A DNA stretch of 46,491 bases, taken from a virus (taxonomy: Duplodnaviria > Caudoviricetes). The notes under the pieces are model-generated. The model worked only from the letters and a program-made list of their open reading frames with translations. It did not search any database and had not been told where the DNA came from. The stretch's first letter is position 1, and every line of letters starts with the position of its first letter. The stretch lies in the IMG/VR virus record IMGVR_UViG_3300015370_000023, positions 1 through 46,491 of that record; one strand, written 5' to 3'. The translations under genes and the position numbers were made by a program. This document shows, in pieces, positions 7,395 through 44,601 of this stretch.

Positions 7395-8537
7395 TTTGAT
7401 GGTGACATAGTATGTATAACAAACAATCAAGAAGTAATTAATGGTGCATATAGAGGTTTGCCAATTGATTATGAAAATAAAAAAGCACCAAAAGAAAAAA
7501 TATGTGAAAAAAACTTATATTTAGCGGACATCGATGGTTTTAACTCTAAGGTCGGATTTGTTACAAATGTTGCGACTACTGCATTTGCTATGCTTCCTTT
7601 ATTTAAAGAAAATACAGAAGAATATTCTGAATTGATAGACAGGCTGAAAAGACTAAGAAAAGAACAAGGAAGTACAATTGATGCAACTAAAGGCTTAGAA
7701 ATTAAACCATTTCCTATTCATTGGACTAAATGGAATAAAATAAACGAAGATGATTCTAATGAAATAAAAAATAAAAAAAGATTTTTGAACAATATTACAA
7801 TAAATAAAAGACCTTATTTTATGAGATATGTTTATTCTCATTATAATAAAGAATACCTAATCTATTTAAATAAGTGGAAAGACAATGTTAGATTCAATGT
7901 TAATAAAACTTTAGACGAACTATTAATTGAAGAAAATTTAAGTCAAAAAGAAAAAAGTCTTATAAATAATTATAATAAATATCATCCTTTTTTAGAAACA
8001 AGTTGTACAATGAATAAAATTTGTTGGAATATGGAGAAAAATATTTCACAATTAAAAATTAGTTTAAAGCAAGAAATAACCGATGATATTATTTTACTAT
8101 TGAAAAATAAAGATATTCAAACAGATCCCAAAAAATATAAACAACTATATGATTTGTATAAAAAATATAAAAGTGAAAAAAGAAATTTCTCAAAAATTAA
8201 AAATTTAGATGACAATATTAAATTTAGAAGCATTGATCAATTTAATAAATATATTCGACAGGAAGCTAATTACATTTCTTCTAATGGGTCTGAGTTGGCA
8301 AATATGGCTGTTGATATTTGTTACATTACTCATCCTAATGATAATAAAAATTTTTTATGGAGTGTTTTTGGGGATGATTTATTAGAAAATATTTACTTAA
8401 ATAGACAAGAAAACATACTTGTTCCTTTTTTGGATAAATTTGGAGATATAGAATATCTTGGGAATAAATATAAAATGAAAAAAATAAATATTGATGATAT
8501 ATATGATAACGAGGATTTTTATGAATATAGTCTTTGA
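7395..8537 (+). CDS. yonO: YonO-like RNA polymerase, exon 2
   Basis: Begins FDGDIVCITNN, in frame with the 7458..8537 ORF; contains VGFVTN, QGSTIDATKG, RPYFMRYVY. Confidence 0.9.
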   Translation, partial: FDGDIVCITNNQEVINGAYRGLPIDYENKKAPKEKICEKNLYLADIDGFNSKVGFVTNVATTAFAMLPLFKENTEEYSELIDRLKRLRKEQGSTIDATKGLEIKPFPIHWTKWNKINEDDSNEIKNKKRFLNNITINKRPYFMRYVYSHYNKEYLIYLNKWKDNVRFNVNKTLDELLIEENLSQKEKSLINNYNKYHPFLETSCTMNKICWNMEKNISQLKISLKQEITDDIILLLKNKDIQTDPKKYKQLYDLYKKYKSEKRNFSKIKNLDDNIKFRSIDQFNKYIRQEANYISSNGSELANMAVDICYITHPNDNKNFLWSVFGDDLLENIYLNRQENILVPFLDKFGDIEYLGNKYKMKKINIDDIYDNEDFYEYSL

Positions 8538-9340: not shown

Positions 9341-9751
9341 ATGTTAAAAAAAAATAAATATAATCTTCAAAACCGTCCAGAAATAGAAGAAATAACAACA
9401 AGTCATTTTTTACACCTTGTATCAGAAGATGCAGGGTTCACACTATCAGATACCCGTATATTTTGGAGATCTGTAGTTAGAATTATGGCTCGTGCTATTG
9501 TTTCAGAAAAAATCTTAAGAATTCATGGTATTGGAAAAATTTATGTAAAGACAATTCCTGCAAGAAGAATGTGGATTGGATTAAAGAAAAAAGAGGCATG
9601 GGTTGATGAATCTAAAAGAATTGTGTTTCAGTTTTCAAGAAGTTTAAAAGAACTTTTGTATGATCATGTTTATTCTGACGGTAGAAATGCAGCGAAATAT
9701 TTTGATAATATTGAATTAGATAATTTTGAAGATGATGATGAGTTTGAATAG
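9341..9751 (+). CDS. HU/IHF-family DNA-binding protein
   Basis: LRIHGIGKIYVKTIPARR...KRIVFQFSRSLKE resembles the HU beta-arm; position equivalent to SPbeta yonN; acidic tail. Confidence 0.75.
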   Translation: MLKKNKYNLQNRPEIEEITTSHFLHLVSEDAGFTLSDTRIFWRSVVRIMARAIVSEKILRIHGIGKIYVKTIPARRMWIGLKKKEAWVDESKRIVFQFSRSLKELLYDHVYSDGRNAAKYFDNIELDNFEDDDEFE

Positions 9752-9770
9752 CGGGTAATAATTTAACCAA

Positions 9771-9788
9771 ATAAAAGAGGAATTTTAT
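9771..9788. promoter_or_regulatory. ATAAAA-N6-TTTTAT palindrome (first of six copies)
   Basis: Copies at 9771, 13278, 15064, 16030, 20943 and 30714 (one mismatch), all at gene junctions. Confidence 0.6.
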
Positions 9789-9859
9789 TGGATTAAATTA
9801 TAAAATAAATTTTATAATTTTATTTTCTCTTGAGGAAGAGGAAGAAAAGGAGATTAAAA

Positions 9860-13099: not shown

Positions 13100-13278
13100 C
13101 CCCCACCCTCGACTACGCCAACACCATGATCCAAATCTACCTCAACGCTGATGACTGGCAGCCCGAAGCTATCAAACATTATTTGGAGCTGCGATTGAGC
13201 GAGATGGTGAAGGCGGACAGGGAACGGGAACTTGAACGATTAGCGATTGATGCGATGGAGGAAGATGACGATTCATAA
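13096..13278 (+). CDS. Small hypothetical protein
   Basis: ATGA overlap with the upstream gene; 60 aa. Confidence 0.6.
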   Translation: MTPTLDYANTMIQIYLNADDWQPEAIKHYLELRLSEMVKADRERELERLAIDAMEEDDDS

Positions 13279-13351
13279 TAAAAGATACATTTTATTGTTT
13301 TAAAATGTTTTTTTGTTAAGTGATAGTTTTTATATAATATTCTGTTTAGAG

Positions 13352-14881: not shown

Positions 14882-15067
14882 ATGGATAAAAAACAATTTA
14901 TAATTCAAGAAGATTTAGCAAATGCAATTTTACAATATCTGGCATCTAAGCCTTATAGTGAGGTTTTTCAATTGATAGGTGGGCTACAACAGTTGAAAAT
15001 AATGGATGTTCCTGAACTTTCTAAACCAAAAAAAGAAAAAGATAAATTAGAACAAGCAATAGAATAA
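14882..15067 (+). CDS. Small phage hypothetical protein
   Basis: ILQYLASKPYSEVFQLI motif, common in small phage proteins. Confidence 0.7.
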   Translation: MDKKQFIIQEDLANAILQYLASKPYSEVFQLIGGLQQLKIMDVPELSKPKKEKDKLEQAIE

Positions 15068-15082
15068 AACGGAGATTTTATT

Positions 15083-15889
15083 ATGGAAAAAGGATATGTT
15101 TATAATCTTTATCCCAACAATGTTCCTTCATCTTGGGGGATTGTTTGGATTGATGCGGTAAAATCTAATGTAATTCATCCTCAGTTTTTTGATAATTGGA
15201 ACAAAATAAAAGATGCTAAAAAAGGGTTGATTCATAAATTAGGTCTAACACAAACTGCTGGAATTAATGAAAATGGAACTATGATGCATGTTGTTCTTGG
15301 TGAACTACAAGCTAATAACTGGAATAATGGAGTTCCTATTATTTTAGATATTTATGATTCAACCTCTGGAGAAAGTTTTGAATTGCATCATATTAGGGGC
15401 TATTTAGAATATATACACGCTAGAGTAAACCTAGAAACGAAACCAATCTTAAGAATTTTATCTGGAACGTGGAACTCGTGGTATGATAATGCTTATTCAG
15501 AATTAAAAAAGGTTCTTGAATTAGCAGATCCTTTAATTATAGGTTGGGGAGGAAATAAACCTACTTCAATTAAAACGGGATATGTTAATTGGTTTGAATA
15601 TGGACAACCCATAGATCCAAGCAAGGCTTCTATTGCTTATATTGCACATGATGAAACCGGAATGTGGGAAAAAAGTCCTCAGGAACCAGTTGTAATTCCC
15701 CCTCCCGAAGAACCTAATGATCCAATTGAAGATCCATTTGACGAGGACGAATATGAAGACGATGGTCTTTTATTAGGGTTTGATCCCATTAAAAAATGGA
15801 ATGTTAATTTAGAATTTAATTTATTAGGATTTTTAAAAGGTTCTATAAAAGGCTCTATTGATGCCGTTTTTGAGGATGAAGAAGAATAG
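15083..15889 (+). CDS. Hypothetical protein, possibly a degenerate GH25 muramidase-like domain
   Basis: HPQFFDNW, PIILDIY and KPILRI segments echo GH25 barrels; P/D/E-rich linker; GGAG RBS. Confidence 0.4.
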   Translation: MEKGYVYNLYPNNVPSSWGIVWIDAVKSNVIHPQFFDNWNKIKDAKKGLIHKLGLTQTAGINENGTMMHVVLGELQANNWNNGVPIILDIYDSTSGESFELHHIRGYLEYIHARVNLETKPILRILSGTWNSWYDNAYSELKKVLELADPLIIGWGGNKPTSIKTGYVNWFEYGQPIDPSKASIAYIAHDETGMWEKSPQEPVVIPPPEEPNDPIEDPFDEDEYEDDGLLLGFDPIKKWNVNLEFNLLGFLKGSIKGSIDAVFEDEEE

Positions 15890-15927: not shown

Positions 15928-16000
15928 TGCGGATGGGAGGTTAGGTTATCTCACAAGTCTCATAAACTTGTAAAAACGGTTTCGATTGCCGTATCCGCTA
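15928..16000 (+). tRNA. tRNA-Met(CAU), initiator-like and atypical
   Basis: Acceptor GCGGAT/ATCCGC with U1:U72 mismatch; D stem GAGG/TCTC; anticodon arm CAAGT-CTCATAA-ACTTG; T arm ACGGT-TTCGATT-GCCGT; no encoded CCA. Confidence 0.85.
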
Positions 16001-16067
16001 TTAATGCATCTTAGGATGCAAATTATTAAATAAAAGGGATATTTTATTGGTACTGGAGTTTAAAAAT

Positions 16068-20613: not shown

Positions 20614-20946
20614 ATGATTACTGCAACACAAAAATCAAAATTAAATAAAATGAATCGTGCTTCTCAGGACGTAAGTTTAGGAACATTAGTTCAGGGATTT
20701 CAGGGTTCATCTGCAACAACTGTTTCTGCTGGTCAAGCAAGTGCTTCATCTGTAGCAATTGATACTGGATTAGATTCTGTTACCGGATATGTTTTTCAAC
20801 AATTTCGTTCATCGGGTTCTTTAGTTATTCCTACAAGTGGATCACAGTATTATGTTAAAAATGCTTCAGGAACAGTTACAATTTCAAGTCCTGCTGCTGG
20901 TGTAATTCAAACAGGAGATATTATCAATCTTGTCACTTTCCAATAA
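20614..20946 (+). CDS. Small S/G/T-rich head-associated protein
   Basis: GGAGG RBS; 110 aa, beta-rich, in the head operon. Confidence 0.7.
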   Translation: MITATQKSKLNKMNRASQDVSLGTLVQGFQGSSATTVSAGQASASSVAIDTGLDSVTGYVFQQFRSSGSLVIPTSGSQYYVKNASGTVTISSPAAGVIQTGDIINLVTFQ

Positions 20947-20989
20947 AATATGTCTTTTATTTAATTTTTTAGAAAGGAGGTAGACTAGA

Positions 20990-21481
20990 ATGGGGATAAA
21001 ATTAATTAGTGACAATTTGATTGATTCTTTATTGGCACAATGGGCGCATGAAAAATATAACTCACATTTGTATTTATATATATCTTCTTTCTTGAAAAAT
21101 AAGGGATTAAACCATTTGGGGAGTAAGTTTTATGATCAATATAAGGAAGAAAACGAACATTCTGAAATGATTATAAGTTTATTAACTGATCTAAACGCAA
21201 TGGTAATGCTTCCTGAAATTGATGAAGTAAACTTTCCAATTAGTTCCATTTTAGATATTGCTGAAAAATACTTGTTAAAAGAATATGAAACCACTACAAG
21301 TTTGGATGAAATTAAAAAATTATCAATAGATGAATCAAATCCAGTTGTAGAAGAGTTTATGAGAGAAATGATTGCACTTCAAAGACATGAGTATGAAGAA
21401 GCAAATGACTTTATGGACAAATCTGAATTAACGGGAAACAATTGGTTTAATGTATTCCTTTGGGATTTGGGAGAAAAATAA
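20990..21481 (+). CDS. ftn: Ferritin (non-heme type)
   Basis: QWAHEKYNSHLY, KEENEH, KEYETT, LQRHEYEE match the ferroxidase-centre pattern; 163 aa. Confidence 0.88.
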   Translation: MGIKLISDNLIDSLLAQWAHEKYNSHLYLYISSFLKNKGLNHLGSKFYDQYKEENEHSEMIISLLTDLNAMVMLPEIDEVNFPISSILDIAEKYLLKEYETTTSLDEIKKLSIDESNPVVEEFMREMIALQRHEYEEANDFMDKSELTGNNWFNVFLWDLGEK

Positions 21482-28024: not shown

Positions 28025-30160
28025 ATGACAAATCCTTATCCTATTACTCCGAGACAATTAGATTTAGTTAATTTATCTGGAAGTCATTTAACAGAACAGG
28101 GGGTTTATCCAAATATAAAAATGGGTGTTGTTGCTAGTAATAATGTTTCTGGTGTAAGTACTGAAACAGTATTAAAAAGTACGGCTTCTGGAGGAATTAC
28201 TCTAGGTTCTTTAAATGTTCAAGGAAACAGTGTATTAAGAAATGTTTTACCAGAAAGTCCAGATACATATGATTTAGGATCTTCTATCAACTTATGGAGA
28301 AAAGGTTGGTTAAGTGAATTAGATACAATTCTTTTTGCTGAAAATACTGCTGCATTAGTTGGAGGATGGTTAATCATTGGAAAAAATCAAGGTTCGATTC
28401 CTTCTTTTGTAGATTCTACTGATACAACTATAGATTTTGGTAAAACTATGGTTGTAGGAGGATCTTCTGTTTTTAGATCTTCTTTACAAGTTGAATATAT
28501 TGGAACAGGTTCTTTAGCTTCTGGAAGTACAGTTTACAATGTGGTTCGAGATTTAGATGGAAGCGGTGCTAATGATTGGGTTGAAGGTAGTGTTTTTCTT
28601 GAGTTAGGGGAATCCGGAGATGGAAGAATTGAATTGAACGCCTATGATACTCCAAGAATTCAATTAATTCAACAGGGAGAAGCATATAATCAACAAAAGG
28701 AAATTATTAGAATTGGCGATTTAAATGGTAACTGGAATTATTCAGCAGAAGAATGGGGAGTTGCTATTGGATCATATGGAAGTGGAAGTGGCAATGTAAC
28801 AATTGATTCAGTTAATGGAGTAAGAATAAATATTTATGATACACCAGTTATGGAATTTAAAAGTACGGGTGCGTTTATTAGTAATATACTCAATATGAGT
28901 GGGTCGAATGCGGCTATAGCTATAGGAGATCCTGTTCCTGTTTCAAGTGGTTCTGGTACTGGATTGTGGTTAGATAACACAGGATTATATGCGTTAAATA
29001 CCGATGTGCAAAAAGCAGTATTAGATGATGTAGGATTACAATTTGGCAATGTATCTGGATCATTTTTATCTTGGCTTGATGATGAGGGTGTAAATTTATC
29101 TGCCACTGATTATACCGGAGGAAGTCAACCAGATGATGCTCCAGGAAGTCAACTTCTTTGGAATAATCCATTGTCCACATATTCAACCAACCTTCCATAT
29201 TCAGCCACTATGCAACAGTTTGTGTACGATTCAGGAAGTGGGAATATGAGTAGCCATTTACAGGCAAGAGTAAGTGGATATGGGGCAGGAAATCCTCAGT
29301 TTTCTGTTGTTACTTCTAATTATACCGGATTAACAGGTGGATATATTGGAACATTTATTGTAAACAACACAAACGGTTCACATTATATATCTTATAGTGG
29401 GGTACTTGCGTCATATTTTTCCGGTATGTTTATAAATAATGATTTTACTATGGATTTGTATGGAAATAGAGTTAATATACATGCTTTATCTCCTTGGCAT
29501 AAATTAAATGAGGGATCAAATTATGTATCAATAACATATGTTAGTGCCACTTCAATACTTATTACACAAGGAGATTATACAGACCTGTTTACTATTGGAA
29601 CAAAAATTAAATTAGATCAAACTACCACCAAATTTTTCTATGTTTTGTCTAGTAGTTATGATGCTGGAAATTATAGAACAACGGTAAATGTTACAGGAGT
29701 AGGAACATATACGGTAGCAAATGCAGCAATAAGTAATTTTTATTATAGTCATTCTGCTGAAGCTGATATGCCATTTGGTTCATCTACCTTCATCCCCCTT
29801 ACCACTCCCCTTACCTCTACATCATGGGACGGTGATGCAAGAAGCACAACCGCTAAGACACTGATTGATTTGTCAGCGGTGTTTGGCGCACCTGCTGGAA
29901 TAAAGGCAGTTCTTGTTCGTATTCAGGCATGGGACAGTGCTTCGGCTGCTGCTACAGTCAACTGGTTTGGACTGAGTCCAAATGGAACTGCCAATAGTTT
30001 AACAATTGTTAATAGATTACAGGGATTTCCAAATGATACAAGAACAGATATGACTGGAATATGTCCTTGTGATTCAAACGGAGATATATACTTCCAGTGT
30101 GCTGCAACGGGAGCATCTACCTTGGATGTAGTTATAGAAATTTATGGCTATTGGATATAA
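28025..30160 (+). CDS. Tail or neck fibre-like protein
   Basis: 711 aa, G/S/T-rich; LPESPDTYDLGSSINLW fibre motif; modular C-terminus. Confidence 0.7.
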   Translation: MTNPYPITPRQLDLVNLSGSHLTEQGVYPNIKMGVVASNNVSGVSTETVLKSTASGGITLGSLNVQGNSVLRNVLPESPDTYDLGSSINLWRKGWLSELDTILFAENTAALVGGWLIIGKNQGSIPSFVDSTDTTIDFGKTMVVGGSSVFRSSLQVEYIGTGSLASGSTVYNVVRDLDGSGANDWVEGSVFLELGESGDGRIELNAYDTPRIQLIQQGEAYNQQKEIIRIGDLNGNWNYSAEEWGVAIGSYGSGSGNVTIDSVNGVRINIYDTPVMEFKSTGAFISNILNMSGSNAAIAIGDPVPVSSGSGTGLWLDNTGLYALNTDVQKAVLDDVGLQFGNVSGSFLSWLDDEGVNLSATDYTGGSQPDDAPGSQLLWNNPLSTYSTNLPYSATMQQFVYDSGSGNMSSHLQARVSGYGAGNPQFSVVTSNYTGLTGGYIGTFIVNNTNGSHYISYSGVLASYFSGMFINNDFTMDLYGNRVNIHALSPWHKLNEGSNYVSITYVSATSILITQGDYTDLFTIGTKIKLDQTTTKFFYVLSSSYDAGNYRTTVNVTGVGTYTVANAAISNFYYSHSAEADMPFGSSTFIPLTTPLTSTSWDGDARSTTAKTLIDLSAVFGAPAGIKAVLVRIQAWDSASAAATVNWFGLSPNGTANSLTIVNRLQGFPNDTRTDMTGICPCDSNGDIYFQCAATGASTLDVVIEIYGYWI

Positions 30161-30168
30161 GGAGAAAT

Positions 30169-30717
30169 ATGACAGAATCTTATAATACTTATTCTTCTAT
30201 TCCATTAATTTCCTATAATATAATTTCCTATTTAATTGATAATAACGAAACTATATTTAAATTACTTTATTATAATGATTCAAATGCGTGGAGATCAGAT
30301 TCTAATCATTCAAACTTATCAAAGGTTCAAAAAGGATCTTTAATATTTGATGGAATAAAATCACAGACAGATTGTAGGATTTTTATGGATACAGGAAACG
30401 ATGATTCTTGGCAAATTGAATCAACTCAATTAAGAGTTTCGGTGGTTAAAGGAATTCCTACTAATCATGTTTTTGGCTATATAACGGTTGGATTTGAAGT
30501 TTATTCTCATTATAAAGTAAACACGTTGTCTAATTATACAACAAGAGATATGGTTATTTTACAACAATTAATAGAAACATTAAATGGTAAAGAAATTGAT
30601 GGTATTGGAACATTGTTTTTTGATTATCGACAAGGTGGAGAATCTAAATTTATTAATATTGGCATTCCTCCATATAAGGGTAAAGGATTAACAATGTGCA
30701 ATTATGTCTTGAAGTAA
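30169..30717 (+). CDS. Putative tail terminator/completion protein (YomW-like)
   Basis: ATG at 30169 after AAGGAG; IFKLLYY and LNGKEIDGIGTLFF motifs; position. Confidence 0.6.
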   Translation: MTESYNTYSSIPLISYNIISYLIDNNETIFKLLYYNDSNAWRSDSNHSNLSKVQKGSLIFDGIKSQTDCRIFMDTGNDDSWQIESTQLRVSVVKGIPTNHVFGYITVGFEVYSHYKVNTLSNYTTRDMVILQQLIETLNGKEIDGIGTLFFDYRQGGESKFINIGIPPYKGKGLTMCNYVLK

Positions 30718-30732
30718 AATCAGGATTTTATT

Positions 30733-31003
30733 GTAACCTACCACGGGATAAATCCCGTAGCTTTTGAAAAAAAGATACAAGGTTAACCAGATCATTAACA
30801 GGAGGTAAAAATTGTTAATAAACGATAGGAAAGAAAATAGGAACAAAAGTGTATCGCACCAGCACTTTTCTCTTCGGATACAGATTAAAAGTCCTGTGAT
30901 GGTAGGGACAGTGTTTGTATCGTTAAACCTTTCCATATCTGATCGAGGTGAAGTCGGATTCTAATGCAACTTCGATGCATTGGATACGCATAACCCTATT
31001 TAT
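30733..31003 (+). ncRNA. omegaRNA scaffold (guide is the flank immediately 5', about 30713-30732)
   Basis: About 280 nt of structured non-coding sequence upstream of iscB; 5' GTAACCT pairs with AGGTTAAC; CCAG and TCGAGG elements as in IscB-associated RNAs. Confidence 0.78.
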
Positions 31004-31018
31004 AGGAGGATTTAACTG

Positions 31019-32269
31019 ATGGAAGTTTATGTATTAAATAAAGAAGGAAAACCTTTAATGCCTTGTAAACCAGTAATTGCAAGGTTGCTATTGAAAAAAA
31101 ATAAAGCAAAATGCATTAAAAGAATTCCATTTACTATTAAACTTCTTGTAAATACCAGTGATTACAAGCAAGAAGTGATAGCTGGTATGGACACGGGAAG
31201 TAAGGTGATTGGTTGTGCTGCTATTTCTAACAACAAAGTAATTTATCAATCGGAAGTTCAAATTAGACAAGATATATCAAAAAAGATGAAACAAAGAAGA
31301 ATGTATCGTAGAAACAGACGAGGTAGGAAAACACGATATAGAAAAGCACGTTGGCAAAATAGGGCTTCCATGAGAAAAAAAGGAAGGCTTGCTCCAAGTA
31401 TTAGGTCTAAAATTGATTCGCATTTAAGGGAACGAAAATTTGTTGAATCAATATTACCCGTATCTTATTGGAAAGTAGAAACAGCGAGTTTTGATATTCA
31501 TAAAATCTCTAACCCAAGTATTAAAATAGAGGATTATCAAAATGGAAATCAAAAAGATTTTTATAATGTAAAGGCTTATGTTTTATACCGAGATAATTAT
31601 TTGTGTCAGAAGTGTAAGACCAAAAAAGGTAAACTATATGTTCATCATATTATATTTAGAAATAACGGAGGAACAGACATTCCAGACAATTTAGTTGTTC
31701 TTTGTTCAGATTGTCACAAAAAACTTCACAATAAAGAGTTTGAAATCAAAGGGGTAATAAATAAAACCAAACATGCTACTGAAATTGGGATTGTTGCATC
31801 TCAATTGAAAAAGCAGTTTGGCAACTTTAAAGAATGTTTTGGTTATGAAACTAAATTCAAAAGAGAGCAAATATTAAAACTCCCTAAAACGCATTATTAT
31901 GATGCAGTAGCGATATGTTGCGAAAAAAACGAAACTGTTAATTTGATTCCGACTGTTTATTTTAAAAAGCATGTTTCTAAAGGAGATTACCGACAAACAA
32001 ACGGAAAATTCTCAGAAAAAAGAATACCAACGGGTAAATTATTTGGATTGAGAAAGTTTGATTATATCCATACGGAAAAGGGTACAGGATGGATTAAAGG
32101 TAAAAGAAGTACGGGAATATTTGTCATATCTGACTTAGAAGGTAAAATAATCAATTCATCAGTGAATGTAAAGAAAGGTTTTGTAAGATTGAAAGCAAGA
32201 ACAACAACCTTAATAGAAGGGAGGGACACGTTCCTCCACGGGATAAGTCCTGTGGTTCCTCGTGCTTAA
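31019..32269 (+). CDS. iscB: RNA-guided endonuclease IscB
   Basis: PLMP motif, RuvC-I GMDTGSK, Arg-rich bridge helix, RuvC-II VETASFD, HNH VHHIIFRNNGGTDIPDNLVVLCSDCH, RuvC-III THYYDA; AGGAGG RBS. Confidence 0.96.
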   Translation: MEVYVLNKEGKPLMPCKPVIARLLLKKNKAKCIKRIPFTIKLLVNTSDYKQEVIAGMDTGSKVIGCAAISNNKVIYQSEVQIRQDISKKMKQRRMYRRNRRGRKTRYRKARWQNRASMRKKGRLAPSIRSKIDSHLRERKFVESILPVSYWKVETASFDIHKISNPSIKIEDYQNGNQKDFYNVKAYVLYRDNYLCQKCKTKKGKLYVHHIIFRNNGGTDIPDNLVVLCSDCHKKLHNKEFEIKGVINKTKHATEIGIVASQLKKQFGNFKECFGYETKFKREQILKLPKTHYYDAVAICCEKNETVNLIPTVYFKKHVSKGDYRQTNGKFSEKRIPTGKLFGLRKFDYIHTEKGTGWIKGKRSTGIFVISDLEGKIINSSVNVKKGFVRLKARTTTLIEGRDTFLHGISPVVPRA

Positions 32270-32274
32270 ATCTT

Positions 32275-33084
32275 ATGGAACACGTATATAATGAGGAAAA
32301 CGATGTTTGGGGGTTTCCTCAAACATACAAAGGAATTGAATTTCATCCAATAAAATTGAGTGATTTTTTAACAGAAAAACTTTTTTATAGAATTTTTGGT
32401 TATCCAAAAGAGTATATAAAAGAAAAAGAAATAATTAAATTAAGTTATTTAAAATATATCTTATATTATGTTCCATTAGCAACAAAAGAAGATTCTTCTA
32501 TTGTCCAAAAAAATTTAGAAAATTTTTTTAAAAAAATTTGTAAAACCGATAAAGTTTCTTTAGAGGTACAAAAATTAGATTTTATTAAAAATGAAATTGA
32601 TTCTATACTTTTGAGTATAAAAATAAATGGTGTTTCATTTAATGAAGAAGATTTTGATATTTTAAGAGAGATGATATTGAAACAAAATGGAAGTTCTGTA
32701 AGATATATAGAAGATTTTGATCCAACATTGGAAGAAAAATTAAATTGGTTTAATAGGAAAACAGAGGGTGTAACATTTGAAGATCAGTTGGTTACATATT
32801 GTGCATTATCTAAAATTCCTATTTGTGATGATTCGATTAAGAATATGACTATTTATCAATTTAAAAAAAGTTTTCAAAGATTGGCACTACTTCTCGATTA
32901 CGAGAATTTATTCCCATTAGAGATTTCGGGACAAATAAAGTCAAAGACAGGGAAAGAAATTGTCAAACATTATATGTCTCATATTGGACAAGAGGGAAGG
33001 TATGATTCAATCTTAATAAGTAAAGATGACTTTATGAATAATCATCAACTTATGAAAGAAAATAATTTAAAAAATGAAAAATAA
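32275..33084 (+). CDS. Tail-module protein (YomV-like)
   Basis: 269 aa upstream of the tail tube gene; FDILREMILKQN and IKNMTIYQF motifs. Confidence 0.7.
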   Translation: MEHVYNEENDVWGFPQTYKGIEFHPIKLSDFLTEKLFYRIFGYPKEYIKEKEIIKLSYLKYILYYVPLATKEDSSIVQKNLENFFKKICKTDKVSLEVQKLDFIKNEIDSILLSIKINGVSFNEEDFDILREMILKQNGSSVRYIEDFDPTLEEKLNWFNRKTEGVTFEDQLVTYCALSKIPICDDSIKNMTIYQFKKSFQRLALLLDYENLFPLEISGQIKSKTGKEIVKHYMSHIGQEGRYDSILISKDDFMNNHQLMKENNLKNEK

Positions 33085-33098
33085 AAGGAGATAATAAT

Positions 33099-34124
33099 AT
33101 GGCAAATAATTTCTTAGTTAGTGTTGCAGATGCAATATTGAGAAACCCAACTACTCTTGAAACCTTAGCTATAGGTAAAGCAAACATTAATTCCGCTTTC
33201 AATATTACTATGCAGAATACAGATGTTCGTGGTGGAATTGGAAATCCGTTACTTTATAGTTTTTATCATGATCGTATGGTTGAAGTTTCAATTGAGTCTG
33301 CTATTTTTGCAAAGTCTATTTTGGCTTTAAATGCGGGGGCAAGTGTAACAAATGGTGCGTTGACTTGTGTTAAACAAGAGGATCTTGTTTTAGTTGCTGA
33401 TGATGGTACTTTAAGTGAAACTCCGCTTGGGAATGTTAGTGTAATTCTTCCAAATGGAACAATTCAAACTGTAACTCCTGTTGGAACAACCATCACCGTT
33501 TCGGCTGGTGGAACTCAGAAAGTTACTGTAATTTATACTTATACCGATACTGTTGATTATGTTGTTGGTTCTACAACTGAGCCTCCAACCATTGTAGATT
33601 TAATTTTGATTGCTGAAGTAAAAGATAATACGGGTATTGTTGAAAGACTTCAGATTCATGTTCCTCGATTCCAAATTTCCGGTAATTATAGTTTGGCTAT
33701 GACAGCTAATGGTGTTTCTACTGAAACTCTTGATGGTAAAGCATTAGAAGTTACTTCTATTACAACTGATCCAAATTACTATTATCGTGTAGCATGGATT
33801 CCTGTTTCTACTTCTGCTATTGCTGTTTCTAGCATTGCTATTACTCCTACGGTTTTAACCTTTGATACAGCGGATTTACCAAAATCTAAACAGGCTAATC
33901 TTTTAGGTATTCGTGGTGGGACTTACGCAAACGCCAATATTACTACATCTGCATCTTGGATTAGAACAAGTGGATGTATTACATTTAATATTGGTGCTGC
34001 AACTGGTATAGTTTCTGCTTGTGCTACTGTTGGAGTTGGAGATGCTGCTTTATTTACGGCAACCTATTATGACCCCACAAGTGGATCATTGACGGATACA
34101 TTTAGTGCTGTTGGCACAGCATAG
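33099..34124 (+). CDS. Major tail tube protein (YomU-like) with C-terminal Ig-like extension
   Basis: DVRGGIGNPL and LQIHVPRFQISG motifs; strong RBS; followed by a hairpin. Confidence 0.8.
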   Translation: MANNFLVSVADAILRNPTTLETLAIGKANINSAFNITMQNTDVRGGIGNPLLYSFYHDRMVEVSIESAIFAKSILALNAGASVTNGALTCVKQEDLVLVADDGTLSETPLGNVSVILPNGTIQTVTPVGTTITVSAGGTQKVTVIYTYTDTVDYVVGSTTEPPTIVDLILIAEVKDNTGIVERLQIHVPRFQISGNYSLAMTANGVSTETLDGKALEVTSITTDPNYYYRVAWIPVSTSAIAVSSIAITPTVLTFDTADLPKSKQANLLGIRGGTYANANITTSASWIRTSGCITFNIGAATGIVSACATVGVGDAALFTATYYDPTSGSLTDTFSAVGTA

Positions 34125-37466: not shown

Positions 37467-38243
37467 ATGGAAAAAATATGTGGAATTTATTGTATTGAAA
37501 ATATTATTAATAATAAAAAATATGTTGGGTGGGCAATTAATATTTATAAAAGATGGAGTAAACATAAAAGTGAGTTGCGAGGAAATTATCATAAAAATAA
37601 ATACTTACAAAACGCATGGAATAAATATGGCGAAGAATATTTTAATTTTTGGATTATTCAAGAATGTGAGATTGATTTATTACAATTAATGGAAATTTAT
37701 TGGATAGTTTATTATGAATCTTTTTTTAAGGATAAGGGGGGTTATAACTTAACTAGAGGAGGAGATGGACGAACTGGTATGAGTGGAGAATTAGCTCCGA
37801 TGTATGGAAAACATCATACGGAAGAAACTAAAAAGAAAATGTCCAAGTCGTCAAAAGGACAAATAATGTCAATCGAAGCTAGAAAGAAAATGTCTATCTA
37901 TCGATCTCAAAGAAAATTAAGTAAAGAAACTAGAAATAAAATATCTCAATCTAACATGGGTAGGATAGTTGAAGATAAAACAAAAAAGAAAATTGGATAT
38001 AAAAATCTAGGCACAAAAAAAAATGTAAAGAATAGGAGTAGTGATTATTTTGGAGTGAGTTGGTATAAAAAGCGTAATAACTGGGTTGTTCACTTAACTA
38101 TTCAAGGGATTAATAAGACACTTGGATATTTTAAAGATGAAATAGATGCTGCCAAATATTATGATGTCATTAGTTGGGATACTTATAAAGATTTAACAAA
38201 ATTAAATTTTCCAGAAGATTATAAGAGGATAAAAAATGGTTAG
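37467..38243 (+). CDS. Free-standing GIY-YIG homing endonuclease with NUMOD3 repeats and an AP2 domain
   Basis: CGIYCIEN...YVG...RW, GYNLTRGG; GKHHTEETKKKMS repeats; SDYFGVSW...LGYFKDEIDAAKYYD. Confidence 0.92.
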   Translation: MEKICGIYCIENIINNKKYVGWAINIYKRWSKHKSELRGNYHKNKYLQNAWNKYGEEYFNFWIIQECEIDLLQLMEIYWIVYYESFFKDKGGYNLTRGGDGRTGMSGELAPMYGKHHTEETKKKMSKSSKGQIMSIEARKKMSIYRSQRKLSKETRNKISQSNMGRIVEDKTKKKIGYKNLGTKKNVKNRSSDYFGVSWYKKRNNWVVHLTIQGINKTLGYFKDEIDAAKYYDVISWDTYKDLTKLNFPEDYKRIKNG

Positions 38244-39231: not shown

Positions 39232-39269
39232 AATTACCTCTTTTCTAGAGGTTGAAAGGAGGGTTATTA

Positions 39270-40094
39270 ATGGCTGATGGTGGTTATAATATTATAGTTG
39301 GAATTGAGCCTGATGTTACGGGTCTTCAACAAAAACTAGATAGAAAAACTAAGAATATTAAAATAACAACAAGCGTTAACATGGGGCAAAAAGATATTGA
39401 CTCCTATGTTAAACAGTGGAATAATCAGATTTCGAGAATGCAGTTTAAGTCTCCAGATATTTTTAATAATGCGGAAGTTCAAGCAAATTTAAAAGTTCTT
39501 CAAGATAATATTACCAGTTTTTCTCAAAGAGGTGGCGCTTCTGTTCAAGATGTAAGAGGAAGTTTTGATGATTTAAGAACTTCTGTTACTAAAGTCGGCG
39601 CTTCTATGAAGAATACGACTAAAGATGGTTATGGATTTACATCTATGCTTGAAGTTGCTATTAAAAAAGTTGCAATATGGTTTCTTGCAACACAAGCTAT
39701 TTATGGAAGCCTTAGAAAAATAGAAGAGGGAACACAATATATTAAAGATTTGAACAAGGAATTAACAAATGTTCAAATTGTTACAGGTATGACGGCTGAA
39801 GAAGTTGATAGATTGGCTGTTCAATATAATAAACTTGCAAAAGAAATGGGTGCAACGACTCTTCAGGTGGCAGAGGGATCTCTAGAATGGTTCAGGCAAG
39901 GAAAGACAATTGAAGAAACTTCTGAGTTGATGAGGTCAACTTTGATGCTAAGCAAGCTTGGTAATTTAGAGGCTGCTCAAGCTACTGAATATTTAACAGC
40001 AACATTAAATGGTTTTAAATTAGAGGCTCAAGATGCAAGTTTGGTTGTCGATAAATTAATCGATTTGGACAACCAATATGCTACGTCTGCTGGT
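39270..40094 (+). CDS. Tape measure protein, exon 1
   Basis: ATG at 39270 after AGGAGG; TP901-type core LNKELTNVQIVTG...EWFRQGK...LTATLNGFK...DKLIDLDNQYATSAG. Spliced product 1284 aa. Confidence 0.9.
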
Positions 40095-41571
40095 AGAGAA
40101 AATTGCCAGAACATATAGTAATATATGGATAATTATACCATAAAATATATGGTATAATTATTAGAAGATAACTATATCGGTTAAAGACTTATCGCAAAGT
40201 TAAGACCGAGGAAAGACTTATTTATAATGGGAAAAAGAAAATTTTGGACAAAAGAGGAAATAAAAAATTTCATAGAACTATATCCTGAAACTCCAATGAT
40301 TGAATTGATAAAAATTTTTAAAAGAAATAAGCAATCTTTAATTCAAAAAGCACATAAATTAAAAATACAAAAAATTATTAAAAATGGAAGTGTTGCTTTC
40401 ACCAAAGAAGAAATTGAAAAAATAATATTTGATTCTAAAACCATATCTGTTGTTAATCTATCTAAAAAATATAACAGAGATGAAAGCACAATATCGAGTG
40501 TATTAAAAAGAAATAAAATTTCTCCTGTAAAAAATGATTTTTGGTGGACAGAAGATGAAGAATTGTTTTTAATTAATAATTATAACAATTTTTCTACAAA
40601 AGAATTGGAAAATAAATTAAATAGGAATAGGAAAACAATTACTAAAAAGGCAAGATTGATTGGTTTAAAAAGAATGAACAATTCTGGTGAATTTCGTAAA
40701 AATCCATCTATAATAAATGAAAAAGAATCGCTATATATTTTAGAAAATCATGATAAACTAACAACAGTTGAAATAGCAAGAAATTTAGGAAGAAAATCCG
40801 TTGACATTATTCTTTTTTGTAAAAGAAATAACTTAAGTTTTATTAGAGGAAGAAAAGACTTAAATAATTTTTCTGATAAAAAATTATTAAATGAACTTAT
40901 AGAAATGTCAAAAGAGCTAGGGAGATGTCCTAATATTAGTGAAATTTCTAATAATATAAATCTTCCTGCTGTTGACATATATTTTGACAGATTTGGAAGT
41001 TTTACAAATGCTTGTGAAAAAGCAGGATTAATTCCTAACATCGGAAGATATGGAACACAATGTTATTCTAAAAATCATGATTTTTGTTACTCTATTCAGG
41101 AACAAATTATAACAGATTATTTTATAGATAATAATATTCAGTATATAAAAGAATATCCTTATTCAAAAATAATAAAAAATCAACCCGTTAGATATATTAT
41201 GGATTGGTTGATTAATGAAAATATTGTTGTTGAATATTTTGGAATGATAAACGATAAAGAATATAATAAAAAAACAAAAGAGAAAATAAAAATATGTAAA
41301 AATAATAATATTAAAATAATTTCAATTTTCCCAAAAGATTTAAAAATTTTGTCCAAAAAGTTTTTAACAATAAATAAGAATCCGTAACGACTACAGGGTG
41401 TTTATAGTAATATAAATACTGAAGTTATCCTCCTTGAAAAAGGATGAATATATAGTCTGAACTGCAAAAATAATGCGAAAAAATAAAATTGCAGAAATAA
41501 GAAGAAATTCTTGTTCGCTATTTATTTATTAAATAGTCATAAAGGTATGTGGATACCTTAGTAACAGATTG
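40095..41571 (+). ncRNA. Group I self-splicing intron in the tape measure gene
   Basis: P1 CUGGU^/GCCAG with U.G; P3 GAUAACU/AGUUAUC; P4 UCGGU/ACCGA; P6 GGA/UCC; P7 GUAACGACUAC (41384)/AUAUAGUCUG (41450); terminal G41571; splicing gives YATSAG^EIATAL in frame. Confidence 0.92.
40227..41387 (+). CDS. Intron-encoded putative homing endonuclease (Myb/HTH-like repeats, homing-endonuclease-associated repeat, PD-(D/E)xK/Vsr-like domain)
   Basis: WTKEE, FTKEE, WTEDEE repeats; ELGRCP...YFDRFGSFTNACEKAGL; SIQEQII...EYPY...MDWLI...VVEYFG. Confidence 0.75.
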   Translation: MGKRKFWTKEEIKNFIELYPETPMIELIKIFKRNKQSLIQKAHKLKIQKIIKNGSVAFTKEEIEKIIFDSKTISVVNLSKKYNRDESTISSVLKRNKISPVKNDFWWTEDEELFLINNYNNFSTKELENKLNRNRKTITKKARLIGLKRMNNSGEFRKNPSIINEKESLYILENHDKLTTVEIARNLGRKSVDIILFCKRNNLSFIRGRKDLNNFSDKKLLNELIEMSKELGRCPNISEISNNINLPAVDIYFDRFGSFTNACEKAGLIPNIGRYGTQCYSKNHDFCYSIQEQIITDYFIDNNIQYIKEYPYSKIIKNQPVRYIMDWLINENIVVEYFGMINDKEYNKKTKEKIKICKNNNIKIISIFPKDLKILSKKFLTINKNP

Positions 41572-44500
41572 GAAATAGCCACAGCCCTACAATATTCGTC
41601 AAACTCCGCTCAACAAGCAGGAATTAGTTTTGATGAATTAGCAAGTTATGTAACAGTTTTAAGTTCTGTAACCAGAAGAAGTGCTGAAAGCATAGGACAG
41701 AGCTTAAAAACGATGTTCGCCAGAATGGAGAACATAAAATTAGGAAAAATGTTCGAAGATGATGCAACAACTCTTAACGATGTAGAAAGAGCTTTGACAT
41801 TAGTAAACATAAAATTAAGAGACACAGAAACCTCATTTAGACCTATGGGGGATGTAATGGACGAGATTGCTGAAAAATGGTCTACGATGAACGAAATAGA
41901 ACAAAGTGCAGTTGCAAATGCTATTGCTGGTGTTCGGCAGCGTGAGAATTTTTTGGTGTTAATGTCAAATTACAACGAAGTTCTAAATGCTCAAGCCATT
42001 CAACTTCATTCTCTTGGATTAGCAACAGAACGATATGAAATTTACATGGATTCCATAGAGGGAAAAGCAAATACCTTAAAGGCATCAATGGAAAATTTGT
42101 GGCAAAAAGCCATTGATGATGATGTTATTAAATTCTTTTTAGACTTAGGAATTTCTTCTGCTGAAGCAATTGACAAAATGGGTGGATTAATTCCTATTTT
42201 GGAATCTATTATTGGTTTAGTTGCAGTTTTAAGCGCTCAAACAATGGCAAATTTTATTGTTAAAATTTTGGGTGCAGCTACAGCAGTACAAGGATTTTCT
42301 TTTTCATTAATTAGTTTACAGCTTTTATTAAAAACATCTATTTCTTGGGTTTCAATTTTTCAGGTTGCTATTGTTGCTTTAACTGCCGTAATTATAACAT
42401 ATCAACAAACAGTTAAGAAACAGCAAGATTTAGGATTAGAAAGTACAACTAATGCCTGGTCTAATGCTTTTAAAAACTTGGGAGAAGAAATTAAGACCAC
42501 CGAACAAATAATGGGTGAATATAAAAAAATGGTGGATTCTGTCAATGAGGCTCATAATAAGGCAGGATTGATAGCTGATCTTTTTGTAGATAAACAAAAG
42601 ATACTTGATCAAGGATTGAAAGAAGTAATTGTAACCTTAAAAGATACCACTTCTAATTATAATGATTATATTGAGGCGGTAGAAAAGGCAGCCGAATTAG
42701 CTGGATATACTGTAACAGAAAACGGAAAATTGGTAAGGACTGTAAGTTCAGCAGGAAAAGTTGTTGTAAAAACAGCGGATGATTTTGGTGTTCTTACTGA
42801 TGCTGAACTCGCTTTATTTAATGCTACGAAAGCAGAATTAGATACTTGGGTAACAGCCTGGAAACGTGCTCATGGTCAAATATTTGATAGTACAGAAGAA
42901 TTATCTCAAGCATTTGATGATCTGCAATACATACTTGATGATTCATTTGGGAAAGCATTTGATTCTTACCACGAAAAACAAGAAAAAGCAGCAATTCAAG
43001 CGGCAGAACTAAGAGAAGAAATACGATTGCTTTCAGAACAACCAACATCGACAGATGAACAATTAACTCAATTAGGTGATCTTCAATATGAATTGTATAA
43101 TGTTGAACAGGATATTTTAAAAACTGCCGATGCTTATGAAAAATCTCTTCAAGCGTCTATTATTAGCACATTTATTCAAAGAGTTTCTTTATCTGAACTT
43201 AGTTTAGATGCTAAAAATGCTGCTTATAATATGGCTGCTGATATGATGCAAGCTTGGGGATTGATGGGCGCTGAAACCGTAAGAGTTATGGGAGCAATGG
43301 ATCAAGCATTAGTTGATTTAGCAAATGGCGCATATGATTCTGCTCAATTAGCTTTAGAGGCAATTTACAATCTTGGAACTGCCGCATCTGCCATTAGTGG
43401 TAATTATTATATGACCTTTTGGGTCAATACTGTCACTGGAAATGTTGTATCTCCTGGAACTTTGGATGAAAATGATCCACTATGGGGACTACAGAATAAT
43501 CAAGCAACAACTTTAGCTTTTAATCCACCTCCTACAAATGTTCCAACTCGATCTTCTTTTCCTGGATTTTCAGGTAGTGGTAGTAGTGGTGGTAGTGGTG
43601 GTGGAGGATCTTCTGCTGCTCCAAAAGAAGAAATAAAAACACTCAAAGATCTTCATAACCTTGTAATCAGTTTAATTAAAGCAGAGAAAAACGCAATAAA
43701 AGATTCCTTAAAAGAACAGTTAGACGCTTATGAAGAAATTATTGATGCCAAAAAAGAAATCCTAAAAGCAGAGCAAGAGTCTATAGAATACCAAGAGGAA
43801 CTTGAAGATAAAACCAAGGGTATTGCTAAAATTCAATCTGAAATGGCAATTTTGGCACTTGATACCTCTGCGGAGTCGAAAGCAAGACAGTTAGAACTTG
43901 CTGAAGAATTATCAGATGCTCAAAAAGACTTAGAACAGACTCAAAGAGATCGATCTTATGATCTGCAAGAAGAGGCATTAGATAAAGAATATGATCTATA
44001 TAAAGAAAATATTGATTTACAAATTGCAGCTATTGATGAATATTTAGATAAAACTGGTCAGATTGCTCAAGATGCATTAAACATAATAGGTGAACAAGCT
44101 CCTAATTTATATCAATCATTGATAGATTGGAATGAAGAATATGGATCTGGAATTAAAACCGATGTAATAGAAGCATGGAACGAAGCCTATGATGCATTAT
44201 TAAAGTATGGAAATTTAGCAGATGCATTATATGGTGGAGTTTCTCCAACTGCATCTACTGAAACACTTCCTACTCATCATAGTGGCTTATCTTCTGGCGC
44301 AGTGGGTGGTGTTAGAACATTACCTGGTGAGGTTCTTTCTAAATTACTTGTTGGTGAAGAAGTAATGAACAATAACGACATACTAAAAACTTTAAAAATG
44401 ATTCCTAGCGTGGCTAACATTATCAACAGGTCTCAAGGTTCTGGAGGTTTGAATATTGAAAGCTTAATTACTGTTCAAGGTGATGTAATTGAAAGAACAA

Positions 44501-44601
44501 TTCCAAAAATAAAGGATATTGCTAGGGATGTTATAAAAGAAATTAATTCTACTCTTGTTCGACAAGGAAGTGTGAGAGATGTCGCATCAATTTATGGTTA
44601 A
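41572..44601 (+). CDS. Tape measure protein, exon 2
   Basis: EIATAL...TRRSAESIGQSLKTMFARM...IAGVRQRENF continues the TP901 core; hydrophobic segments; long coiled coil; C-terminal HHSG motif. Confidence 0.9.
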   Translation, partial: EIATALQYSSNSAQQAGISFDELASYVTVLSSVTRRSAESIGQSLKTMFARMENIKLGKMFEDDATTLNDVERALTLVNIKLRDTETSFRPMGDVMDEIAEKWSTMNEIEQSAVANAIAGVRQRENFLVLMSNYNEVLNAQAIQLHSLGLATERYEIYMDSIEGKANTLKASMENLWQKAIDDDVIKFFLDLGISSAEAIDKMGGLIPILESIIGLVAVLSAQTMANFIVKILGAATAVQGFSFSLISLQLLLKTSISWVSIFQVAIVALTAVIITYQQTVKKQQDLGLESTTNAWSNAFKNLGEEIKTTEQIMGEYKKMVDSVNEAHNKAGLIADLFVDKQKILDQGLKEVIVTLKDTTSNYNDYIEAVEKAAELAGYTVTENGKLVRTVSSAGKVVVKTADDFGVLTDAELALFNATKAELDTWVTAWKRAHGQIFDSTEELSQAFDDLQYILDDSFGKAFDSYHEKQEKAAIQAAELREEIRLLSEQPTSTDEQLTQLGDLQYELYNVEQDILKTADAYEKSLQASIISTFIQRVSLSELSLDAKNAAYNMAADMMQAWGLMGAETVRVMGAMDQALVDLANGAYDSAQLALEAIYNLGTAASAISGNYYMTFWVNTVTGNVVSPGTLDENDPLWGLQNNQATTLAFNPPPTNVPTRSSFPGFSGSGSSGGSGGGGSSAAPKEEIKTLKDLHNLVISLIKAEKNAIKDSLKEQLDAYEEIIDAKKEILKAEQESIEYQEELEDKTKGIAKIQSEMAILALDTSAESKARQLELAEELSDAQKDLEQTQRDRSYDLQEEALDKEYDLYKENIDLQIAAIDEYLDKTGQIAQDALNIIGEQAPNLYQSLIDWNEEYGSGIKTDVIEAWNEAYDALLKYGNLADALYGGVSPTASTETLPTHHSGLSSGAVGGVRTLPGEVLSKLLVGEEVMNNNDILKTLKMIPSVANIINRSQGSGGLNIESLITVQGDVIERTIPKIKDIARDVIKEINSTLVRQGSVRDVASIYG

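What the first reader, a model, noticed from the sequence alone, without database searches (positions are those of the whole stretch)
30714..32280. IscB element inserted exactly between a virion gene's RBS and its ATG
Seen: deleting 30733-32274 yields TAAAATCAGGATTTTATT^ATGGAA, which restores an AGGA RBS 7 nt before the ATG of 32275..33084. This matches the palindrome-to-ATG spacing of the uninterrupted junction at 15064-15088. In the inserted state the gene has no obvious RBS and starts 5 nt after the iscB stop. Established: IscB guides derive from the flank 5' of the omegaRNA and the 3' TAM from the other flank. Inference: the TAM is about ATGG, i.e. the start codon. The element would behave as an RNA-guided homing endonuclease in an essential operon, cutting empty alleles, with the tail gene now translationally coupled to iscB so that the phage depends on iscB translation.
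Basis: partly seen in the sequence, partly recalled or inferred. Interest (0 to 1): 0.8.

Follow-up and report, generated by a model that had tools for sequence, protein, structure and literature searches.

The report
IscB transposon docked on phage start-codon
A 1.5-kb selfish element encoding an RNA-guided nuclease sits exactly between the ribosome-binding site and the start codon of a conserved phage tail-region gene, as about half of its relatives do at other genes, and it likely keeps that gene translated by ending its own reading frame five bases before the captured start codon.

Summary
Observation confirmed. The element is 30733-32274: a HEARO/omegaRNA plus an intact iscB. A related phage carries the predicted empty allele letter for letter (L001). 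Both ends fit the IS608 TnpA guide rule, which gives ATGG as the insertion target. It is an ordinary non-autonomous ISC2/IscB element of the known N|ATGA type. The family pattern is the interesting part. 23 of 45 relatives' sites are start codons, against 6% of all ATGR sites. iscB stops within -7..+4 of the ATG in 49 of 65 end types, against 9 and 14 in the other frames. That favours translational coupling. The ends also carry an SD motif 50 nt upstream that a covarying stem could bridge to the ATG, but TnpB ends with non-start flanks have it too, and this copy's stem is weakened. Cutting of empty alleles is untested: this IscB has the ATGA-type C-terminus, not that of the ATGG clade. Dependence on iscB translation and essentiality of the gene (YomV family) are unproven. 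The scan noted start-codon docking before on other DNA.

The parts
30169..30717 (+). upstream gene, 182 aa, PHROG 6123 'virion structural protein'; its stop lies in the palindrome
30715..30732 (+). left flank: phage-wide TAAAA-N6-TTTTATT palindrome holding the native AGGA RBS (30722-30725); predicted source of the omegaRNA guide
   Evidence: guide origin from Meers 2023
30733..30958 (+). HEARO/omegaRNA scaffold; element 5' end at 30733
   Evidence: (86.6 bits, full model)
30733..30764 (-). omega-side TnpA end: cleavage tetramer TTAC (30733-30736), hairpin 30741-30760, guide AAAG (30761-30764); the same guide/site pair as the IS608 left end
   Evidence: sequence; rule from PMC5934647
31019..32269 (+). 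iscB, 416 aa, own AGGAGG RBS at 31004-31009; PLMP, RuvC D58/E154/H292/D295 and HNH residues present; frame runs through the 3' end hairpin
   Evidence: NF040563 334.6 bits, cut-off 175
32220..32224 (+). element-borne SD-like GGAGG, 50 nt before the captured ATG (family consensus AAAGGAGG)
32225..32266 (+). outer stem arms (32225-32230 with 32261-32266, weakened in this copy) around the ATG-side TnpA hairpin (32236-32255) and guide (32256-32259, GGAA on the minus strand, predicting target CCAT = ATGG)
32267..32274 (+). iscB stop codon and 5-nt spacer; element 3' end at 32274
32275..33084 (+). captured gene, 269 aa, YomV family (PF27211, PHROG 4051), function unknown; its first bases ATGG are the insertion target
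33099..34124 (+). next gene, 341 aa, PHROG 2729 'virion structural protein' (tail-tube-like by position; label recalled), with its own SD
15063..15088 (+). near-target in the phage's own genome: 9-nt seed match plus ATGGAA, 4 mismatches in 16

Best explanation
This is a non-autonomous IscB (ISC2, IS200/IS605-family) transposon that inserted precisely 5' of ATGG at the start codon of a YomV-family gene of an SPbeta-like phage, and it likely keeps that gene translated mainly by translational coupling to its own iscB frame. Shown: the ends, the empty alleles, the intact omegaRNA and nuclease motifs, and a TnpA DNA guide that spells ATGG. Inferred steps: (1) a host Y1 TnpA, not found in this window, inserted it. 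(2) The phage's late operon transcript supplies the guide from the left flank and expresses iscB from its strong RBS. (3) Ribosomes finishing iscB unwind the end hairpins, stop 5 nt before the ATG and reinitiate; the element's GGAGG 50 nt upstream may help if the outer stem forms. (4) IscB would cut empty alleles like L001 during excision or co-infection and so retain or spread the element, if its TAM accepts ATGG. Start codons are a favoured resting place for the whole family: the ATGR target overlaps them, the site is transcribed in the right direction, and the element's 3' end leaves the gene translatable.
For: Empty alleles. HEARO at 30733. IscB. Guide rule; covariation 72 of 73 dereplicated flanks agree. 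Start-codon occupancy: 23 of 45 unique sites (56 unique, 11 dropped for short flanks) vs 5.8% of all ATGR and 22% of sites outside long ORFs. With a second crude gene caller: 19 of 41, and 19 of 32 vs 24% for co-oriented non-coding sites, p 2e-5. 9 of the 23 downstream ORFs hit Pfam, and 7 of these 9 match from within about 25 residues of the ATG (RecA, SSB, MoeA, PHO4, EPSP synthase, RlaP, GpP). iscB stops at -7..+4 in 49 of 65 end types and reads past in 1, against 9/39 and 14/37 in the other two frames. Separate lineages reach this by different means (-5 TAA, ATGA overlap, TRATG overlap). In this copy the SD is predicted paired and the ATG mostly paired, so an unwinding ribosome would help. 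Distant phages place this gene 2-7 nt from the upstream stop codon in 6 of 7 distant loci. No terminator-like site on the + strand inside the element.
Against: No expression, cleavage or ribosome data. Stop-near-ATG is as common at non-start sites (19 of 22) as at start sites (19 of 23), so it is an element trait and not a local adaptation. 4 of 23 start-docked copies have an iscB frame under 395 aa. The end types are related, so counts overstate independence; stop codons are also easier to find in the AT-rich spacer. The gene calling was crude (no Prodigal on the machine). This IscB lacks the C-terminal segment of the ATGG clade, so step 4 is doubtful. Two of three close empty alleles have changes that break the guide match.
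Confidence: 0.6

Rival explanations
1. Bridged (split) ribosome-binding site: the element's own SD is brought to 6-12 nt from the captured ATG by a stem that loops out the TnpA hairpin, as in T4 genes 25 and 38, so the gene is translated without iscB translation.
For: 51 of 65 end types have an SD match of 5 nt or more just 5' of an outer stem; the bridged spacing is mostly 7-8 nt; mean predicted stem probability is 0.70. The arms covary: 186 of 210 cells paired vs 110 with shuffled partners (max 141) and 52-83 when slid (35 arm pairs; Methanosarcinaceae and 4 mis-parsed rows left out). Arg codons there are AGG in 63 of 69 vs 189 of 1033 elsewhere in iscB. Ends lacking the stem carry an SD directly in the spacer (L016, Methanosarcina). 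L084, L089 and L110 lost the TnpA hairpin or guide but keep SD and a closing stem before a long ORF. Precedent: PMC3014915.
Against: TnpB ends and IscB ends flanked by ATAA/ATAG/GTAA have the same outer stem and an AAGGA(A/G)-like motif, so conservation does not show a translation role. The SD is only slightly stronger at ATG/GTG ends in Ktedonobacteria (-7.5 vs -6.5 kcal/mol, 12 vs 18 ends, p 0.04). In this copy the stem has P about 0 in 120-200 nt contexts and the SD pairs with TTCCTCC.
Confidence: 0.25
2. One reading: an active RNA-guided homing endonuclease with TAM ATGG that drives through co-infecting phages and makes the phage depend on iscB translation for an essential virion gene.
For: Catalytic motifs and omegaRNA intact; L001 is a perfect 16/16 target followed by ATGGAA; L002 has a 3-nt insertion at the site and the X11 allele a changed spacer, as escape alleles would; the filled allele is seen in five runs, two of them possibly the source; donor-joint cleavage is published for GstIscB.
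Against: The C-terminus is of the ATGA type: the ATGG-clade residues occur in 8 of 12 ATGG elements and 0-1 of 69 ATGA elements, and are absent here. The gene's function, essentiality and presence in the virion are unknown. Spacer variation in empty alleles may be neutral. Broken iscB frames occur at start sites.
Confidence: 0.25
3. Near-neutral passenger: the gene needs little protein and is translated weakly from the AU-rich spacer or by scanning, so neither coupling nor the internal SD is under selection, and start-codon enrichment only reflects survival at transcribed, non-disruptive sites.
For: The native RBS is weak (AGGA) and predicted paired inside the palindrome in the empty allele; several other genes in the window have weak or distant SDs; orientation bias is already explained by guide transcription (Meers 2023); the end features do not differ between start and non-start sites.
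Against: Start sites exceed even the co-oriented non-coding null (19 of 32 vs 24%). The real frame stops near the ATG far more often than the other frames. The ATG is predicted paired in this copy.
Confidence: 0.2

Closest known systems
ISC2 transposons with N|ATGA targets (ISC2-1_HM, ISC2-1_MS; also ISC1-1_MA), Kapitonov et al. 2016, PMC4810608 (passages read)
   Same: Non-autonomous, 5'-GT start, subterminal hairpins, no target duplication, insertion 5' of an ATG-containing tetramer, HNH-bearing IscB.
   Different: Target here is N|ATGG with a matching guide change; it sits in a phage morphogenesis operon; the paper's main text has no occurrence of 'start codon'.
GstIscB element of Geobacillus stearothermophilus, Meers et al. 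2023, bioRxiv 10.1101/2023.03.14.532601 (passages read)
   Same: omegaRNA upstream of iscB, flank-derived guide, TAM equal to the TnpA target (TTCAT, i.e. ATGAA), co-orientation with the upstream gene, retention by cutting the empty site.
   Different: Cleavage is untested here; the paper explains orientation by guide transcription and has no passage on ribosome binding, Shine-Dalgarno or downstream genes; its supplements were closed.
IS608 ends (PMC5934647, PMC3201880; passages read)
   Same: Guide tetramer at the hairpin foot pairs with the cleavage site; the omega-side end here has the very pair AAAG/TTAC.
   Different: IS608 encodes TnpA and TnpB; the passages describe a second 3' hairpin at its left end, not an enclosing outer stem or a role in translation.
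T4 gene 25 and gene 38 split ribosome-binding sites (review PMC3014915, passage read)
   Same: A stem between SD and AUG shortens a long spacing to a working one.
   Different: There 22-27 nt are bridged by one hairpin and function is proven; here about 50 nt, a nested hairpin, a mobile element, and no test.
IStrons (listing and abstract start only; review passages)
   Same: An IS200/IS605 element with an RNA-guided nuclease that spares the host gene it interrupts.
   Different: IStrons splice out as group I introns; this element has no room for one and would act at translation initiation.

Membership tests
ISC2 / IscB-omegaRNA (OMEGA) element | IscB protein with PLMP, split RuvC, bridge helix and HNH | tested here: met
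   NF040563 334.6 bits vs cut-off 175; RRXRR and HNH; D58, E154, H292, D295, H209/H210, H233 align with solved IscBs and are invariant in 34 relatives
ISC2 / IscB-omegaRNA (OMEGA) element | omegaRNA/HEARO upstream of iscB, abutting the element end | tested here: met
   RF02033 30733-30958, full length, above gathering
ISC2 / IscB-omegaRNA (OMEGA) element | Subterminal hairpins with guide tetramers that match the cleavage sites | tested here: met
   AAAG/TTAC and GGAA/CCAT by the IS608 rule; family covariation
ISC2 / IscB-omegaRNA (OMEGA) element | Precise insertion next to a 4-5 nt target without duplication | tested here: met
   empty allele L001
ISC2 / IscB-omegaRNA (OMEGA) element | Mobilisation by a Y1 TnpA in trans | tested here: inconclusive
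   no Y1_Tnp hit in 55 ORF translations scanned; the rest of the phage and the host were not available; no skipping joint in same-strain contigs, but contigs drop rare variants
ISC2 / IscB-omegaRNA (OMEGA) element | RNA-guided cleavage of the empty site next to a TAM equal to the transposon target | not testable with these tools
   needs a cleavage assay; raises doubt about ATGG
IStron | Group I intron core inside the element | tested here: not met
   non-coding parts are 286 nt (226 of them HEARO) and 5 nt; Rfam finds only HEARO and a tRNA at E<=0.01 (it also missed the window's probable introns, so the length argument carries the weight)
Split RBS of the T4 gene 25/38 type | SD and AUG brought to working distance by a conserved, covarying stem | tested here: inconclusive
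   met in the family, not predicted to form in this copy, and also present at non-start ends
Split RBS of the T4 gene 25/38 type | Stem disruption lowers translation | not testable with these tools
   needs reporters

The most novel reading that the evidence does not exclude
The TnpA-binding end of IscB transposons doubles as a portable translation-restart cassette: a stop codon set against the captured ATG plus an SD bridged over the transposase hairpin. This makes start codons a safe harbour without splicing. In phages it ties a morphogenesis gene to continued translation of an RNA-guided homing nuclease.
Probability: 0.35. Interest if true: 0.72.

Novelty: new variant of a known kind. Interest (0 to 1): 0.5.

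Why it matters
If true, it explains how IscB elements survive in gene-dense operons and why they are co-oriented with host genes: they take over the junction between RBS and start codon and re-supply initiation, a non-splicing counterpart of IStrons. It also gives a natural phage system (filled allele, perfect empty target, two mismatched empty alleles) to test RNA-guided homing between phages, and a case where the transposase target seems to have switched to ATGG ahead of the nuclease's C-terminal domain. The element itself, its target type and IscB homing are already known.

Tried and rejected
Exact-pattern and single-protein scans of viral contigs for this element found nothing. No RNA holder was listed, so expression could not be examined. 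No excision joint in same-strain contigs of X1, X2, X3, X4, X8, X9; contigs show presence only. The first two automatic end parsers mis-assigned bulged hairpins and were replaced, which itself missed about a third of the rows and mis-parsed four; 17 ends were then placed by hand. The promoter-like site at 32121-32148 is within chance (16 found, 16.6 expected). The idea that SD plus outer stem is specific to start-codon-targeting IscB elements was rejected by the TnpB control. An internal restart was set aside: no in-frame start with an SD lies near the ATG and the conserved N-terminal motif begins at residue 5. Foldseek against PDB gave no match for the 269-aa model; BFVD gave only uncharacterised phage proteins. 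A tail-chaperone role was considered from memory and is unsupported. The larger contig of the same phage could not be searched for tnpA. Literature searches for IscB with start codon, RBS, Shine-Dalgarno or translational coupling listed no paper on this; I saw listings only, most subscription papers are not held, and Weinberg 2009 and Altae-Tran 2021 are recalled, not read.

Full report
Setting. The window is a 46.5-kb piece of a large SPbeta-like siphophage: a split RNA-polymerase-like gene, terminase, portal, capsid-region genes, tail-region genes and a split tape measure gene (the SPbeta label rests on the YomV family name and on recalled gene order). Contigs holding it come from groundwater and other metagenomes.

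HEARO begins at 30733, iscB is 31019-32269, and the next gene starts at 32275. Removing 30733-32274 puts AGGA 7 nt before that ATG. Of 3 loci found with the downstream protein, the two close ones are empty: L001 has the predicted junction exactly, L002 has 3 extra bases. None of 9 loci found with the upstream protein has iscB; 2 of the 9 are the same contigs as L001 and L002. A low-depth contig in run X11 gives a third empty allele with a different spacer. The filled allele is bridged at one or both junctions in X1, X2, X3, X4 and X8; X1 and X2 may be the source.

Ends and target. In IS608 a 4-nt guide at the hairpin foot pairs with the cleavage site (AAAG with TTAC; PMC5934647, passages). Read on the minus strand, the omega-side end has AAAG and TTAC, and the ATG-side end has GGAA, which by the same rule selects CCAT, i.e. 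ATGG. Among 73 dereplicated flanks parsed, guides ending TC go with ATGA in 66, guides ending CC with ATGG in 6 (this element included), and 1 disagrees. A few unparsed ATGG copies have degenerate or non-matching guides. So ATGG is the transposition target. Insertion before ATGA is published (PMC4810608, passages), as are a TAM equal to that target and retention by cutting the empty site (bioRxiv 2023.03.14.532601, passages).

Is the nuclease TAM ATGG? Unknown. The catalytic motifs are intact and L001 matches the last 16 flank bases perfectly. But 8 of 12 ATGG-flanked IscBs form one clade with a distinct C-terminal segment, and this protein has the ATGA-type segment (81 proteins, 130 columns). 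The phage's own 15083 junction matches 9 seed bases plus ATGGAA and then has 4 mismatches, so it is probably spared.

Start-codon docking is a family trait. From 169 loci, 70 had both ends placed; these gave 56 unique sites, of which 11 were dropped for short flanks. 23 of 45 sit at the start of an ORF of 70 aa or more, against 5.8% of all ATGR sites and 22% of sites outside long ORFs. A second crude caller gave 19 of 41, and 19 of 32 against 24% when only co-oriented non-coding sites are allowed. 9 of the 23 ORFs hit Pfam, 7 of them from near the ATG. The sites are not fully independent and no real gene caller was available.

How the captured gene could be translated. (a) Coupling. iscB stops within -7..+4 of the ATG in 49 of 65 end types and reads past it in 1; the other two frames give 9 and 14 near, 39 and 37 past. 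Different lineages use different solutions, including ATGA and TRATG overlaps. It is an element trait, equally common at non-start sites (19 of 22 vs 19 of 23), and 4 of 23 start-docked copies have a short iscB frame. (b) Bridged SD. Most ends carry an SD-like motif just before an outer stem that encloses the TnpA hairpin, giving a bridged spacing of mostly 7-8 nt (51 of 65 with 5 nt or more). The arms covary and the codons there are biased to AGG. Copies that lost the TnpA hairpin keep SD and stem, or bring the SD or the stop next to a long ORF. The control cuts against specificity: TnpB ends and IscB ends with ATAA, ATAG or GTAA flanks in G001 and G005 have the same stem and an AAGGA(A/G) motif, with only a small difference in SD strength. 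Any RBS role would be a re-use of a general left-end feature. In the window's copy the stem is weakened, the SD pairs with TTCCTCC and the ATG is mostly paired, although stem-containing folds appear in a shorter fragment. For this copy coupling is the better bet.

The captured gene. It is 269 aa, conserved in sequence and position in related large phages, and falls in clusters labelled YomV_2nd in 16-40% of members. Its confident model (pLDDT 85.8) matches only uncharacterised phage proteins. 'Virion' and 'essential' are therefore inferences from synteny. In 6 of 7 distant loci the gene starts 2-7 nt from the upstream stop codon, so coupling would suit it.

Novelty. The element is an ordinary ISC2 member with an ATGG target. 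I found no paper on start-codon docking or translational rescue by IscB ends (limited library, preprint supplements closed, Kapitonov supplements not opened). Earlier notes of this scan report start-codon docking and replacement RBSs on other DNA; none matched a search for a bridged SD with a TnpB control. I tested the docking claim myself and it holds. What this case adds is natural empty alleles in a phage, the frame test for coupling, the TnpB control, and the guide/nuclease mismatch. Verdict: real, well defined, mechanism partly open; interest 0.5.

Noticed in passing
window 9770-9789, 13277-13296, 15063-15082, 16029-16048, 20942-20961, 30715-30732: A repeated palindrome (TAAAA-N6-TTTTATT; 11 strand matches vs 0.56 expected) lies between genes; it may be an operator. 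The IscB guide would be drawn from one copy.
   Followed up: partly
window 4673-8537: An RNA-polymerase-like gene is split into two ORFs matching successive parts of phrog_8308, with a NUMOD3 ORF (6448-7212) between: probable intron, not hit by Rfam.
   Followed up: no
window 39252-44601: The tape measure gene is split in two around an HNH-repeat ORF (40227-41387): probable intron, not hit by Rfam.
   Followed up: no
window 15928-16000, 9341-9751, 20990-21481, 37467-38243: tRNA-Met(CAT), an HU-like gene, a ferritin-like gene between portal and the next head gene, and a free-standing GIY-YIG endonuclease.
   Followed up: no
L002:3980-4006 and run X11 contig: Two empty alleles differ at the target (3-nt insertion; changed spacer) in ways that break the guide match; escape or neutral variation.
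   Followed up: partly
L061, L068, L074, L084, L109, L110, L143, L146: ATGG-flanked IscBs form a clade with a replaced C-terminal segment, a candidate TAM-specificity determinant.
   Followed up: partly
L020:4000-4900: The iscB frame runs through the element end in frame into the downstream ORF, giving a fusion.
   Followed up: no
L005, L092, L113, L121, L123, L133: Copies that lost the TnpA end have a long ORF starting at or soon after the iscB stop, as if iscB had become part of the operon.
   Followed up: partly
L110, L137, L007: The segment between the outer-stem arms is inverted (L110) or partly converted to a perfect palindrome (L137, L007).
   Followed up: no
L009-L015, L021, L024, L016: Methanosarcina and Singulisphaera elements have a short outer stem and an SD-like motif directly 3-4 nt before the ATG.
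   Followed up: partly
window 28770-29785 vs L001:2163-3049: The middle of the 711-aa gene has no blastn match to the otherwise 81-89% identical relative L001.
   Followed up: no
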